This document shows, piece after piece, positions 39,792 to 45,130 of a DNA stretch of 64,000 nucleotides. Position 1 is the first letter of the stretch, and every line of letters starts with the position of its first letter. The position numbers and the translations under genes are program-made. The DNA is from Podospora anserina (Eukaryota). The notes below the pieces were generated by a model. It made no database searches and was not told the DNA's origin. It worked only from the letters and a program-made list of their open reading frames with translations. The stretch covers positions 3,906,001-3,970,000 of the forward strand of contig CM030332.1 in assembly GCA_017654855.1 (NCBI GenBank), given 5' to 3'.

Positions 39792-41876
39792 TCAACACTT
39801 CAAGTTGATCCCCCGTCTCAGCTCCCCCTGCCTAATCTCAAACATGACCTGTATCCCCACAAACAGCGCCGTACACGCCGTGACCAAAAACACCAGTCCT
39901 ATATCTTTTGTCAGCATCCCATTTCCCCATCATAACGTGTGTCACATACCAGAATAATCCCTAAAAACCCCACTGATAATCGCCTTGAGCCCATCCTACA
40001 CACACACACACACACATCAGTTAGCATCCCCTCTATCATCCCAAACAAAATCACAACAAAGTACTCACCAACCCAACCGCAAACCCCACCAAATTCGCCG
40101 AAATCATCATCAGCACATTGCCCACCCCCCCCAACCCACAAAGCCACCTATAAGTCCTCTCCCTTCCTTTAAAATCTTCCTTCCTCACCAGCAGTCCCGC
40201 CACAATCTCCGGTATAAAAAACAACACCACCAACCACCCCCAAATCAGCAAATTCAGCTTGATGTCATGCCACAGCGCCACAAACGTAAAAACAACCAAA
40301 TACGTCACCACCGTCCTCACCCCCTGCCCCAAAGACCTGAAGCTTGACCCCCCCAGCGGAATATAAATATACCGCAGCAGCCACCGATAATAACTCCTAT
40401 GCCACCCCCGCCAAAACGACAAGGCCGAGTAATTATTCGACATGCACCTCAGCATGTTCTCCGGTGGATCAATCCCATCAACCAACGACCAGAGTCGAAA
40501 GAATCTCCAGGGAAGGAGGAGCTTAAGCCAGACGATGTGCAGGTTGAAGTATGACAACAGAGAGATCTGAGCGGGCGTGTAAGTCGACCATTCAGGGCGT
40601 GACTTGCTTATCGCGCCGACATAGTCGTAGTGAAGCACCAGCTCCATGCAGAGCAGCACCAGCAGAAACCGAACCGCATACTTCCACGTTCGTGCCGAAG
40701 AAATCGTCGCTGATCGGTACCGCGACTGCGAGATGTAATCGTTGAACGTAATAATCGGACCCGTCAGATACAGCGGCGCATAAACCGCATACCCGACATA
40801 GTTCCTGAAGCTGTAATCACCCTTTTGAGCCGGCAGGGCAATCCGGTCTCGCTCAGAGAGGTTGGACAGGTCGAGGTTCTTCTTCTTATGCGTGTCAGCA
40901 TCTCTCTAACAGGGTGAACACAACGAACAAAACATACCTCAACCACCCCCCCCACCGTATTCCTACCATCCAAACTCCAGTAATAATCCAAACTAAAACT
41001 AACCAGCCTCAAAACTGTGATATTAAACAAAATCTCCCACCTCCCCATCAACCCCCCAAACCCATCCATCCACTCCCCCAACCTCACCACCGCCGGCAGG
41101 TCAACAACCATATTCTTCCTGTCAATCCCCAACGTGCCCGTCACCAGTCGGGCAACATACCCAAACCTATACCCCGAACAAACCTCATTCGCAAACAAGG
41201 TACATATATTAAAAACCCACGTCCCAACCGGCACATACCTCCTCGGCAACCCCTTCGCAATCGCATAATTCCCCGCCAGTATCACCAACACCTTGATCGC
41301 CGAGAAACCATGCAAAATCACCAAAAAAACCAGCGCAAACACAAAATCAAACGATGTCCGCTGACGAAACCGCATTTCCACCCCTTCGGCACTGTTTTCT
41401 TTTACCTCACCCCTTGTGGTGACCATGTTGTACGCTCTCCTGAGTAAAGGGTGAAAAAGTAACAATGCAGCCATGGCGGGGAGGTTCCGCCTGAATGTTC
41501 TGTATTGGGCGTCTGAATTGTCGATTTTGCGGCCTGGGATCCAGCCTTCTGACAGAAAACGCTCGAACTTGGGGTAGCGGGGGTCCGAGGGGCGGGAGAC
41601 GGAGTAGGCGACGTAGAACATGGAGGGGACGGCGAGGAGGAAGACGAGGTAGTAGAGGTAGAATTCGGGGGTTTTCCACTTGGGGGGTGAGGCTCCATTG
41701 GTGGGGGGTTTGGGGGAGGTTGAGTCCCGTCGTTTATCGGGGGAACGGGCTTCGAGGGGGCGGTAGGGGACGCCCGAGGGGGTGGTGAAGCGGGTGTCGA
41801 GGGTGTCGAGGGTGTAGATTTTTCGGAGGAGGGCCAGCGGGCCGGTGCCGCTGCCGCTGCCACCGTTCGGCGCCAT
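39792..41876 (-). CDS. GUP1: MBOAT O-acyltransferase, glycerol uptake protein Gup1-like; three introns (~40885-40937, ~39996-40066, ~39900-39948)
   Basis: GWIPGRKIDNSDAQYRTFR, RWEILFNITVLRLVSF, YAPLYLTGPIITFNDY, PPENMLRCMSNNYS..FWRGWHRSY, FTFVALWHD. Confidence 0.93.
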
Positions 41877-42699
41877 GGTTGCCGTCACGGTTGGAGGGGA
41901 TCGTTTGTTGTCGTCGAGTGGTGATGGGGGATGGAGGTGGTGGTTATATCATTTCCGCCCTTTGATTCGGAATCTTAAAGGCGTAAAATGCCAATGGCAA
42001 CTAAAGTAAACGACTGTGCTGAAGAAGACTGATGGATTTTTCAAAGAAAAAAGAGTGGCTGTAGTCGGTTAAGGTAAAAAGTGTCGAGAAATGGTGGTCA
42101 GAGGACATTCGTCTCGAGTTGCCCGGCTCCGTGTCTGTTCACAGGGGCGCGGTTGATGGTGTCAGCTGGAGCCCGCCAACGGTGGAACCGCGGTCCAGCC
42201 GTTGTGTTACGGTTTGTGGGGTCGGTTGCCGCCGGCTGTGTTGAGCTGGGGGGCGCACTGACCACTTTTTGACCCCTTTCTTGATGTTGCCCCTGAGCCC
42301 CTTTTTTTGTTTTGGTGATGGTGAGGTTGTTATGGAACAGGCGGCGCGAAAAAAAGAAAAAAAAGGTGAAAATAGCTGGGATCTTTTGGTGTTTTGGACT
42401 GTTGAGGTCGGGAAAAATCTTTTTGGTCGGTGTTGGTGGGCAAATGTTGCGATGTTTTGAAATTGGGCAGCTGTGGAAGTGGATGTATGGGTCGGAGTGG
42501 TGAATAACTTCAAGCTGGGATTTGTTATTTTGTTGGTTATTTGGGATATAAAGTTGAGCACCCAAAAGTGTTTAGTGTTGGAAGGTGCATGAGCTGGCTT
42601 TGCTACACCTGAAGCCCAAGAAGTGAGTGCCCCAAGCAGTGCAAGAGCATGTGTGAAAGTTGAAGCGGCAATATATAACCTCGGTTTTCTGCGTCAACA

Positions 42700-43211
42700 A
42701 TTGCTCCTCGTGTCTGATTCACAATCATATCGCACGATGGCTGATGGTCATGTGGTCTTCGACATGATCGTGAACCAGATACGAGCAGTGTTTTGCTTGG
42801 AATCTCACCTCGAACCGTCGGGAGTTCGAGCGCAGCCTCGTTTCTTTTTCTTTTTCTGCATCAGTATCATGACCGGCGTATGCCAAAGAAAGAGCACGAA
42901 GGATACAGTCCCCTATCTCAAACAAGAAGGTATTCTCTGCATAGGATTAAAAGGCGCAGTTGTTTATGATGATGCATCCTTTAACCCCATGTAGAGAATG
43001 TTTTGCTCTTCCCACCAGAACCCCAATGTCAAGTCGATGGGTTCGAAACGTCGACCGATCATCATCTGTCCATTTCTTATGCCCTCGAGTCTTTGCTTCG
43101 GGCTTAAGAGCACCCCCGCCCCGCCATATAGCCTTCGTTTCCTGCCCAATTACTATCGTTGCATTTGGTTTATGGCCAAGTAGCACGACCAAATGCCGGG
43201 GTGTGTTTTTT
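42700..43211 (+). ncRNA. candidate large structured ncRNA, unidentified
   Basis: At least six hairpins of 7-15 bp whose G-U pairs favour the + strand; no credible ORF; ends in a T6 run. Confidence 0.45.
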
Positions 43212-43499
43212 GTTGATTTTGAAGACTGCTCTGCTAATACGATCGTGTTCAAAACGTTCGCTGAGCGCTGTTCCTTTTTTCCTCCACACAGCCCGGACAC
43301 ACTCCCACATCTTTATTATGCACCAGCACAGTTAGGTATCGTTAGTCACATCAGCTCCTTTTCCTGCACCTCAAAGCCACCAACAATCACTTACTCCACC
43401 CCCACAGCAACAAGGCCTTTCAACCAAATAATTTCATTCATTCTTCCCTTCATATACTCATCAATCATACTATTTACACCACCCCCTCTCCCCATCCCT

Positions 43500-45130
43500 C
43501 TACGCCCCCATAACCCCATAACTCCTCACCCTCGAAAAGAAAAAAGGCTTATCATTCCTCAGCGTAAACTCAGCCCAATCATCCGTCAGCCTATTCCAGC
43601 TATAAAACCCCCTCCAAGCCAACTTATTATTCCTCGCCCCCTTCCCCGCGCTCTTCAGCGTCAGATCCAACCTGTACACATACTTACTCACCCCCTCCGT
43701 CTCCACCATCACATCCCCTTCAACCTCGCTCAGACTAGCCCCCGGGTTATCCCCCGCCCTCGCCAACCTCCACCTCCCCTTTAGCGCTGACTCCATCACA
43801 TGCCCCGAATGGTGGGAGGCATAAGTCTCACGGGTAAGGTGGTGAACCACATCGTTTGGTTCCGCTGTAGTCAACAGTGACAAACAAGTCCCGTCCCGGA
43901 AAAATCGTAGGTACCGGTAGTACGTCACGACATGAATCGGCGCCCCCCAAGTGATACTGTTCGAATTAGCCATCCCGCTCCGGACGTAGTTCACAGTGCT
44001 GATATAACACCCATTAAACCTCAACCTCGGACGAAGACGGAACATCCGTTGCCAACTCGACCCGTAAAGGCTGTTGAAAAACGCCAGCGTATTGGCTGTC
44101 GATTCATCAGCCAACTTCTCCGCCCGTTTCTCCAGGTCAAAAACTGGCACAACAAAACCATCTTCTTGTTCAGTCTCCGTTGGCGAAGTCGCACCGCTGC
44201 TCTGCGTAAACGCCTCCGCAGCAGCCGCCTCCTCAGCCGCCTCCCGCTCGAGATCCTCCTCGGCAAGCGGCTCCCAAGTGATCTGCCTCTGCCAGTGGTA
44301 GTGCATCCCCCCAAAACCAAACTCCACCCCCAAACAAATCCGCCGCCATATCCTATCCTCCGTCACGACCAAAAACGCAAACCGCTTGCATACCTGCGCC
44401 AGACGAACAAAGTCACCCACATCCGCAACAGCAACGTCACGGAGGATGTGAACAAGTATCTCATCAGGCAGGTTCGAAATCGGGCAGGGAGGCTGAGGCA
44501 TGCCCTCGATTTCTGGCGGCACCGGCTCAATACTCAAACCCGCAAAACTGGCGATGAGCTCCTTCATAGTCTGAGGCTGATCGGCTTTTGCATCCCCCGG
44601 TGCCGCAGCCGTAGAGGAATCCCCCGACTTTGGTGCTGCCATCTTTTGGGGAAATTTCGCCCTGGGGAAGTGCTTCGCTTTGTAGTTTTGATCGACTTGG
44701 TCGTCCATCTGAATGTTGGGTCAGCAGTCAGTTCCAGTTAGAGTGTAGGAGGAGCAAGACATACCCTAAACGCCTTTCTATACAGCCTCAAACTATCCCC
44801 CAAATTCCCCGCCGCCTCCCTTTCCACAGCCTTCTCATAATGCTCGAGAGCGGTGAATGGCTCCTTCTTAGTGGGCACAGCGGCAACTCCTGTAATTGTG
44901 GCCGGCTGTCCGGGTTCATCAAACACCTTTGTAGGCACATAATCCTCCTCATACTCCTTGGCGATCGGCTTCTTCGTAGGAGGAGGCGGCTTCCTCGACC
45001 CCGTCGATGGTCCAGCCGTAGCATGTTGATGCTGACGGGGGCGGTGTGACTGCTGATGTCTAGCCCTGACCTCAGCCCTCCACTGCTCCCTAAACGACTC
45101 AAGATCAGGGTTTGTCTCTGAAGATTCCAT
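43500..45130 (-). CDS. F-box protein, Hrt3/Pof7/FBXO9-like; intron 44709-44764
   Basis: LESFREQWRAEV, ALEHYEKAVEREAAGNLGDSLRLYRKAFR, F-box ISNLPDEILVHIL, RPRLRFNGCYIS, VTYYRYLRFFRDG. Confidence 0.92.

What the first reader, a model, noticed from the sequence alone, without database searches (positions are those of the whole stretch)
42700..43211. About 500 nt of dense, strand-polarised RNA structure in an ORF-free intergenic region
Seen on +: CTCGTGTCTG-A-TTCAC / GTGAA-C-CAGATACGAG (15 bp, ~42707-42785) enclosing GGTCATGT/ACATGATC; CTCGAAC/GTTCGAG (42809-42830); a long pyrimidine/purine stem at ~42836-42902; TGCTCTT/AAGAGCA (43004-43112) enclosing GTCGATG/CGTCGAC; GCATTTGGTT/GACCAAATGC (43160-43195); then T6. 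G-U pairs in several stems work only on the + strand. Upstream are TATAAA (~42547) and a GTGAGT donor-like site (42623). I could not match U1-U6, U3, snR30, SRP, RNase P/MRP or telomerase signature motifs. Inference: a large ncRNA, a snoRNA cluster in a non-coding host transcript, or a milRNA precursor.
Basis: partly seen in the sequence, partly recalled or inferred. Interest (0 to 1): 0.7.

Follow-up and report, generated by a model that had tools for sequence, protein, structure and literature searches.

The report
Three tandem Pol III hairpin genes
What looked like one 500-base folded RNA between two fungal genes is more likely a row of three small hairpin-RNA genes laid out for RNA polymerase III, probably precursors of microRNA-like RNAs, though no such small RNA has yet been seen.

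Summary
The structure is real but is not one dense 500-nt fold. Two long hairpins (42707-42785, 42927-43004) carry the signal; the rest folds no better than shuffles, and both hairpins fold better on the minus strand. Strand comes from promoter anatomy instead. Three + strand modules, 210 and 205 nt apart, each read: TATA-like element, CAA-type element, hairpin with an A-box-like motif (good in units 1 and 3, poor in unit 2), T4-T6 run, then a B-box core 33-41 nt downstream. Only 98 of 6697 T-runs have such a core, and this is the only chain of three. Units 1 and 3 are similar even without those anchors (0 of 3000) and share compensatory stem changes. The layout matches the BLV Pol III miRNA cluster; the closest fungal class is Neurospora milR-1 to -4. 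No Rfam family, second copy or orthologue was found; five syntenic relatives have a spacer about 1 kb shorter. Pol III transcription, Dicer processing and targets are untested; B-boxes are weak and motifs were partly chosen after inspection. The scan noted a similar layout in another fungus (e1-7588065).

The parts
42671..42678 (+). Unit 1 TATA element (ATATATAA), 28 nt before 42700
   Evidence: same offset as the TATATA before this genome's SRP RNA gene (L027)
42694..42699 (+). Unit 1 TCAACA element just before the hairpin (candidate start region)
   Evidence: TCAA[AC] lies -26..-6 of 4 of 10 tRNA genes versus 4.4% of background tiles, p 6e-4
42700..42794 (+). Unit 1 predicted transcript (~95 nt): hairpin 1, 26-bp ungapped core 42707-42732/42760-42785, ending in T4 (42791-42794)
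   Evidence: z -4.5 on +; ranks 1 of 98 T-run+core modules by fold z
42738..42755 (+). Unit 1 overlapping A-box-like motifs in the apical part of hairpin 1 (42738, 42745)
   Evidence: 9.1 bits at 42738 versus 9.1-12.1 for 10 tRNA A-boxes; 7% of the 98 modules score as high
42823..42833 (+). Unit 1 B-box-like element (core GTTCGA 42824), 33 nt after the T-run
   Evidence: 6.0 bits versus 16.4-18.1 for 9 tRNA B-boxes
42845..42855 (+). T5-C-T5 run, a likely second stop for read-through from unit 1 (inferred)
42903..42924 (+). Unit 2 upstream: weak TATA-like ATACA (42903) and TCAAACA (42918-42924)
42927..43004 (+). Unit 2 predicted transcript (~78 nt): hairpin 2, 32-bp ungapped stem 42927-42958/42973-43004, ending in T4 (43001-43004); poor A-box-like motif at 42960
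   Evidence: z -4.0 on +; ranks 4 of 98; A-like only 3.1 bits
43040..43050 (+). Unit 2 B-box-like element GGTTCGAAAC, 40 nt after the T-run
   Evidence: 8.0 bits, reached by chance in about 9% of 520-nt stretches
43126..43149 (+). Unit 3 upstream: ATATAG (43126) to CCAA (43146), similar to the unit 1 upstream region
   Evidence: local score reached by 42 of 43,038 80-nt tiles
43150..43211 (+). Unit 3 predicted transcript (~60 nt): shorter hairpin (core 43161-43170/43187-43196) with A-box-like motifs at 43166 and 43173, ending in T6 (43206-43211)
   Evidence: A-like 10.5 bits; fold alone not significant, z -1.0; similarity to unit 1
43246..43256 (+).
   Evidence: (repeat D9 with 43041); only 1.1 bits
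42290..42305 (-). Conserved 16-nt element upstream of the MBOAT gene; marks the left edge of the extra ~1 kb
   Evidence: matched in L006-L010, 185-236 nt after the F-box stop there versus 1195 nt here
40054..41876 (-). Flanking gene: MBOAT acyltransferase (GUP1-like; that name is recalled), ATG at 41876, intron 40885-40937
   Evidence: PF03062 E 7e-50; joint
43500..44708 (-). Flanking gene, last exon: F-box protein with FBO_C domain (FBXO9/Hrt3-like; that name is recalled), stop at 43500-43502
   Evidence: PF12937, PF00646, PF19270; joint 44708/44765

Best explanation
The locus is a tandem array of three small RNA polymerase III-type genes on the + strand. In each, an upstream TATA-like and CAA-type element set the start, an A-box-like motif lies inside the hairpin, an oligo-T run ends the transcript, and the B-box lies behind the terminator, so that TFIIIC bridges A and B across it. 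The products would be single hairpins of about 95, 78 and 60 nt with U tails, which Dicer could cut directly into microRNA-like RNAs for Argonaute. At least units 1 and 3 arose by duplication and then diverged while keeping the stem. Shown from sequence: the hairpins, the repeated motif order, the unit 1/3 similarity. Inferred: Pol III transcription (about 0.75), Dicer/Argonaute processing and a regulatory role (about 0.5 overall).
For: Two ungapped stems score 21.0 and 20.75, the best two of 6 hits in 169,561 nt of this genome; 3 such in a further 800,000 nt. All 13 of their mismatches are G.U or A.C, against 20 of 31 in 4 background hairpins. Both end on + in the same 9-mer with T4 (42789, 42999). 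The only three GTTCRA cores on + in 42300-43500 lie 33, 40 and 41 nt after the three hairpin-ending T-runs; 98 of 6697 T>=4 runs in 1.73 M strand-nt have such a core, and this is the only chain of three. A-box-like motifs sit 80-85 nt before the B-like elements, scoring in the tRNA range for units 1 and 3. A TCAA[AC] element enriched before this genome's tRNA genes (4 of 10 versus 4.4%) precedes hairpins 1 and 2. Unit 1 versus unit 3 from TATA to stem base, anchors removed: 0 of 3000 GC-matched genomic stretches score as high; over 10 stem pairs in register 5 are identical, 2 change on both sides, 2 change through G.U valid only on +, 1 is broken. T4-T5 are 7 of 11 first T-runs behind tRNA calls. 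Same layout described for BLV (PMC12498455, passages); Neurospora milR-1 to -4 are intergenic Pol III hairpins with a T cluster right after (PMC3547838, passages).
Against: No small-RNA or Pol III data. B-like elements score 6.0, 8.0 and 1.1 bits versus 16.4-18.1 for tRNA B-boxes. Both long hairpins are more stable on the minus strand, and in 4 of 4 large control RNAs (MRP, SRP, two U3) the true strand had the lower energy. The module pattern was noticed on the locus before it was counted. Unbiased periodicity tests are not significant (142 of 1276; 34 of 600). Unit 2 is not similar to the others once anchors are removed (390 and 1518 of 3000) and its A-box is poor. The unit 3 hairpin alone is not significant. 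In unit 1 the A-box lies at about +39, further from the TATA-set start than the +3 to +19 given for BLV. No orthologue found, so no cross-species covariation; no near-complementary target for 5 of 6 arms in the 864 kb held.
Confidence: 0.5

Rival explanations
1. The three Pol III-type units are real, but they are relics or make stable or unstable hairpin RNAs that are not Dicer/Argonaute substrates; any role would be TFIIIC binding or insulation between two highly transcribed genes.
For: Weak B-boxes, poor unit 2 A-box, short unit 3 stem, absence from five syntenic relatives. The unit 1 loop resembles the 5' end of this genome's SRP RNA (18 of 21 nt; 0.4% of 8480 tiles), which could point to a 7SL- or tRNA-promoter-derived relic.
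Against: 58 bp of stem without a transversion or indel and paired changes between units 1 and 3 suggest the stems have been kept. No tRNA fold, single copy.
Confidence: 0.25
2. The hairpins work on the minus strand, as structures in an extended 3' UTR or read-through transcript of the F-box gene.
For: Lower energy and z on minus. Three of the four strongest non-AT-rich background hairpins lie within about 330 nt behind an ORF end. In one run guessed to be RNA, with both flanking introns spliced, one contig covers 41099-43391; contigs of three studies stop at 43391-43394 (weak hint, no DNA run laid, strand unknown).
Against: Does not explain the thrice-repeated TATA/CAA, T-run and B-core order, which exists only on + (no T-run with a core on minus). 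The hairpins are 500 and 718 nt from the stop.
Confidence: 0.1
3. Neutral DNA inverted repeats (template-switch scars or transposon remnants) that happen to lie close together.
For: G.U and A.C are balanced between strands (6 versus 7). About 135 hairpins of this score are expected genome-wide (3 in 800 kb), so a pair within 300 nt has roughly a 15% chance somewhere in the genome (my arithmetic). Lineage-restricted.
Against: 13 of 13 transition-type mismatches versus 20 of 31 in background; only 5 of 13 in CpA context by hand count, so not RIP-like; shared motifs around each hairpin; no second copy.
Confidence: 0.08
4. One ~520-nt structured ncRNA closed by the helix 42693-42700/43210-43217, either new or a diverged housekeeping RNA such as RNase P RNA or snR30.
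For: The closing helix has pair probability 0.93. RNase P RNA and snR30 were not located in this genome, so neither is excluded by being elsewhere.
Against: No P4 pseudoknot with both strands inside the region, while the MRP control is found; no snR30 m1/m2 match; no Rfam hit but one chance match at E 8.3; four internal T4-T5 runs; the closing helix runs past the T6.
Confidence: 0.07

Closest known systems
Neurospora crassa Pol III-transcribed milRNA genes milR-1 to milR-4 (PMC3547838; passages read; Figure 2 with the sequences and boxes not visible)
   Same: Intergenic stem-loop, T cluster right after the hairpin, TATA-like element, short predicted primary transcript, related fungus.
   Different: Here three units lie in tandem with a B core behind each terminator; milR-1 has no A or B box and milR-4 is tRNA-linked. 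The paper marks putative A/B boxes for milR-1-4 in a figure I could not see, so single units may share this layout. No small RNA shown here; sequence homology not tested.
Bovine leukemia virus miRNA cluster, pre-miR-B1 to B5 (PMC12498455; passages)
   Same: Tandem hairpins, each with degenerate A-boxes inside the hairpin, a terminator, and a degenerate B-box behind it; A-B distance 34-95 nt there, 80-85 nt here.
   Different: Viral, five units about 100 nt apart, A-boxes at +3 to +19; here chromosomal, three units about 207 nt apart, with upstream TATA-like elements and A-boxes at about +16 to +39. An analogy of layout, not homology.
Saccharomyces cerevisiae SNR6 (U6) promoter (recalled, not read here)
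   Same: TATA box, internal A-box, B-box downstream of the terminator.
   Different: No U6 sequence here (no Rfam hit); single gene versus three units.
Fungal hairpin RNA loci in general (PMC9757828; passages)
   Same: Short animal-like hairpins, intergenic, mostly lineage-specific.
   Different: Those are defined by small-RNA reads, which are lacking here; the paper has no mention of Podospora, Sordaria or 'cluster'.

Membership tests
Neurospora-type Pol III milRNA gene | Intergenic stem-loop long enough for a ~21-nt duplex | tested here: met
   Units 1 and 2: 26 and 32 bp. Unit 3 is doubtful: 10-bp core, z -1.0.
Neurospora-type Pol III milRNA gene | T cluster directly after the hairpin | tested here: met
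   T4 42791, T4 43001, T6 43206; T4-T5 common behind tRNA calls here
Neurospora-type Pol III milRNA gene | TATA-like promoter element | tested here: met
   Clear in unit 1, ATATAG in unit 3, weak in unit 2
Neurospora-type Pol III milRNA gene | Pol III occupancy and dependence | not testable with these tools
   needs ChIP or inhibitor
Neurospora-type Pol III milRNA gene | Dicer/Argonaute-dependent 19-25 nt RNA from one arm, one strand | not testable with these tools
   only assembled contigs could be laid
Neurospora-type Pol III milRNA gene | Sequence homology to milR-1 to -4 | not tested
   sequences are in a figure that is not held
BLV-type Pol III hairpin cluster (layout) | A-box-like motif inside each hairpin | tested here: inconclusive
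   9.1 and 10.5 bits in units 1 and 3, 3.1 in unit 2; tRNA range 9.1-12.1
BLV-type Pol III hairpin cluster (layout) | B-box behind each terminator, 34-95 nt from the A-box | tested here: met
   cores at +33, +40, +41; A-B 80-85 nt; full-length scores weak
BLV-type Pol III hairpin cluster (family) | Viral origin or sequence | tested here: not met
   no match in viral contigs or phages
RNase P / RNase MRP RNA | P4 pseudoknot with CR-I and CR-V (motifs recalled) | tested here: not met
   none within 42693-43217, MRP control found; MRP lies on C3; similarity to MRP not above background
SRP RNA, U3, telomerase RNA | Rfam model match | tested here: not met
   no hit here; each found elsewhere in the genome; no telomere template motif in the window
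snR30/U17 and H/ACA snoRNA | m1 and m2 motifs in a 3' hairpin before an ACA box; unpaired pocket | tested here: not met
   long stems have no pocket; Neurospora homologue is 296 nt (PMC2780460, PMC5824354, passages)
C/D snoRNA | 10-21 nt rRNA antisense element before a D box | tested here: not met
   longest duplex 13 nt with 2 G.U, not before CUGA, at background level; snRNA and tRNA targets not tested
SINE, MITE or solo LTR | Dispersed copies | tested here: not met
   only self in the genome search and for a 22-nt arm pattern with 3 mismatches; diverged copies could be missed
tRNA gene or pseudogene | Cloverleaf between A and B boxes | tested here: not met
   ARAGORN and Rfam negative; T-runs lie between A and B

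The most novel reading that the evidence does not exclude
A chromosomal, lineage-specific cluster of Pol III short-hairpin genes in a fungus, built like the bovine leukemia virus miRNA cluster (B-box behind each terminator), that grew by tandem duplication of a promoter cassette (possibly 7SL-related) and then evolved three different hairpins: a snapshot of how fungal microRNA-like genes are born, and a search pattern for finding them without small-RNA data.
Probability: 0.3. Interest if true: 0.75.

Novelty: new variant of a known kind. Interest (0 to 1): 0.5.

Why it matters
Most reported fungal milRNA loci are poorly supported, and their origin is open. A single-copy, deletable array with three defined promoters and predicted transcript ends gives direct tests of Pol III transcription, Dicer processing and birth by duplication in a tractable Sordariales fungus. 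The T-run plus downstream B-core signature could be used to screen fungal genomes. My searches listed no paper describing such a tandem cluster in a fungus, but the library lacks most subscription journals and I read only listings for most hits.

Tried and rejected
Rfam: whole window at gathering score 0 hits; 42000-43500 at E<=10 0 hits; 42660-43240 one chance hit, E 8.3. A 180-nt local alignment to the genome's MRP RNA looked suggestive but 12 of 496 window tiles score as high, one of them overlapping the region itself. RNase P RNA could not be located: model search scored 15 of 2275 candidates, two motif searches gave 15 and 13 loci, none confirmed. Orthologues: 23 metagenome loci with the F-box gene; no DNA similarity by blastn, nhmmer or a sequence model, no comparable hairpin or module chain. 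The five loci with F-box/MBOAT synteny form one clade, so gain versus loss of the 1 kb is not polarised. Viral contigs, prokaryote genomes and phages: nothing; plasmids one 25-nt chance match. Sequencing runs: no RNA holder listed on record; four runs guessed to be RNA were laid, three leave parts of the array uncovered, which shows nothing, and contigs give no strand, ends or level. Fixed-period alignment of the three units failed or was not significant. The other Pol III-type candidate in this genome (e1-8067865, in L069) is not similar to any unit. The only background TATATA-plus-B-box hit is AT-rich mutated repeat DNA. PMC11547032 held none of my terms on upstream CAA motifs; the 2005 RNase P/MRP survey is not held. 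Supplements of PMC9801653 were listed, not read; they may hold a transcript call for this spacer. PMC8216456 and PMC1636426 (passages) gave no match.

Full report
Setting. The window is C1:3,906,001-3,970,000 of a 36-Mb, 9-contig fungal genome; earlier unchecked notes call it Sordariales- or Podospora-like. The finding lies in a 1.6-kb spacer between an MBOAT gene (ATG 41876) and an F-box gene (stop 43500), both on the minus strand.

Observation. The stems are present and the 512 nt beat all 100 shuffles on both strands, more so on minus (z -3.54 and -5.18). They are the top two of 6 hits in 169,561 nt of this genome and exceed all 6 hits in 141,094 nt of other fungal loci; 3 of equal or higher score occur in a further 800,000 nt. 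The remainder is not significant, though neither are the genome's MRP and SRP RNAs. The 13 mismatches in the two stems are all G.U or A.C, 6 favouring + and 7 minus, against 20 of 31 in four background hairpins. Wobble pairs therefore do not give the strand, and the energy rule that picked the true strand in 4 of 4 large control RNAs would pick minus.

Known RNA classes. Rfam finds nothing. MRP, SRP, three U3 and telomerase RNA lie elsewhere. RNase P RNA and snR30 were not located in the genome, but the region has no P4 pseudoknot (control positive), no snR30 motifs and no rRNA antisense element above background. No coding relic, no second copy, no viral, phage or prokaryote match.

Relatives. 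Of 23 metagenome loci with the F-box gene, 5 keep the MBOAT gene next to it, with spacers of 591-672 nt versus 1624 here. A 16-nt element upstream of MBOAT is conserved in L006-L010 and lies 185-236 nt after the F-box stop there but 1195 nt here. So about 1 kb, holding the hairpins, is extra. Those five loci form one clade, so gain versus loss is open. No orthologue of the structure was found.

What the region is. In this genome 7 of 11 first T-runs behind tRNA calls are T4 or T5, which makes a 510-nt Pol III read-through unlikely and draws attention to short T-runs. Both long hairpins end on + in the same 9-mer containing T4 (42789, 42999), and the third, shorter hairpin ends in T6 (43206). 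Each T-run is followed 33, 40 and 41 nt later by GTTCRA, the core shared by 9 tRNA B-boxes; these are the only three such cores on + in 42300-43500, and no minus-strand T-run has one. Of 6697 T>=4 runs in 1.73 M strand-nt, 98 have a core at +20 to +55; units 1 and 2 rank 1st and 4th by fold, and only here do three follow each other, 210 and 205 nt apart; two unrelated pairs occur elsewhere. A-box-like motifs lie 80-85 nt before the B-like elements, scoring 9.1, 3.1 and 10.5 bits against 9.1-12.1 for 10 tRNA genes. Unit 1 has a TATA element 28 nt before 42700, as the SRP gene has. TCAA[AC], found before 4 of 10 tRNA genes versus 4.4% of background tiles, precedes hairpins 1 and 2, and CCAA precedes hairpin 3. 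Two tests did not use the anchoring motifs: the unit 1 upstream region matches that of unit 3 at a score reached by 42 of 43,038 tiles, and units 1 and 3 align TATA to TATA, A-box to A-box and 3' arm to 3' arm better than 3000 of 3000 GC-matched stretches (boundaries chosen by me). In that register 10 stem pairs show 5 identical, 2 double-sided changes, 2 G.U changes valid only on +, and 1 broken pair.

Against. The module pattern was seen on the locus first. Unbiased periodicity tests are not significant (142 of 1276, 34 of 600). Unit 2 is unrelated in sequence once anchors are removed. Full-length B scores are 6.0, 8.0 and 1.1 versus 16.4-18.1 bits. The unit 3 hairpin is weak. The unit 1 A-box is far from the TATA-set start. 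Nothing shows expression of short RNAs: four runs guessed to be RNA, in which both flanking introns are spliced, give contigs over parts of the spacer and in one case from 41099 to 43391, but contigs show no strand, ends or level.

How it most likely works. Inferred: TFIIIC binds the A-like motif in the hairpin DNA and the B-like motif behind the terminator; TFIIIB sits on the TATA-like element; Pol III makes three U-tailed hairpins of about 95, 78 and 60 nt; Dicer cuts them directly and Argonaute uses one arm. The A.C mismatches spaced 6 nt apart in hairpin 1 would then be ordinary duplex mismatches. This promoter order is described for the BLV miRNA cluster, where the B-box lies behind the terminator and A-B distances are 34-95 nt (PMC12498455, passages). 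The nearest fungal class is Neurospora milR-1 to -4: intergenic, Pol III, T cluster after the hairpin, TATA-dependent, little poly(A) RNA (PMC3547838, passages). Top fungal hairpin loci are short and mostly lineage-specific (PMC9757828, passages). The yeast U6 gene layout is recalled. Membership of the milRNA class needs small-RNA data and is not shown.

Novelty and score. Pol III milRNA genes are known; a tandem, partly paralogous array with downstream B-boxes was not listed in my searches, but a figure I could not see may show this layout for single Neurospora loci. After I had reached this model, an unchecked note on another fungus described a similar layout (e1-7588065); it is a lead, not support. 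New variant of a known kind; interest 0.5.

Noticed in passing
window 43394-43341, minus strand: A consensus 5' splice site at 43394 and branch motif at about 43347 in the F-box 3' UTR, with no YAG nearby (first AG is AAG at about 43312). Such pairs occur 12 times in 800 kb. Contigs of three studies stop at 43391-43394. Could be a 3' UTR intron, first-step-only splicing, or a poly(A)-site assembly effect.
   Followed up: partly
window 42305-42290, minus strand; L006-L010: 16-nt element conserved upstream of the MBOAT gene in relatives with 63-68% F-box identity, where the rest of the spacer does not align; likely a transcription-factor site.
   Followed up: partly
window 42739-42757 versus L027:1502-1522: The unit 1 loop matches the 5' end of this genome's SRP RNA at 18 of 21 positions (0.4% of 8480 tiles); it includes the A-box, so convergence is possible.
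   Followed up: partly
G000, whole genome: RNase P RNA and snR30 were not found by Rfam models or motif searches, while MRP (540 nt, C3), SRP, U3 and telomerase RNA were.
   Followed up: partly
L066:4958-5088, L085:5961-6065, L096:2127-2209, L103:7272-7341: Other long non-coding hairpins without Rfam match; L096 is strongly one-stranded (8 G.U on minus) 82 nt behind an ORF end.
   Followed up: partly
window 42320-42664: Separate contigs in three runs cover this stretch left of unit 1; it is C/A-rich on minus and may be a divergent transcript from the TATA region at 42672.
   Followed up: no
upstream of tRNA genes in L042, L094, L143: TCAA[AC] at -26..-6 in 4 of 10 tRNA genes, an upstream Pol III element in this genome.
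   Followed up: yes
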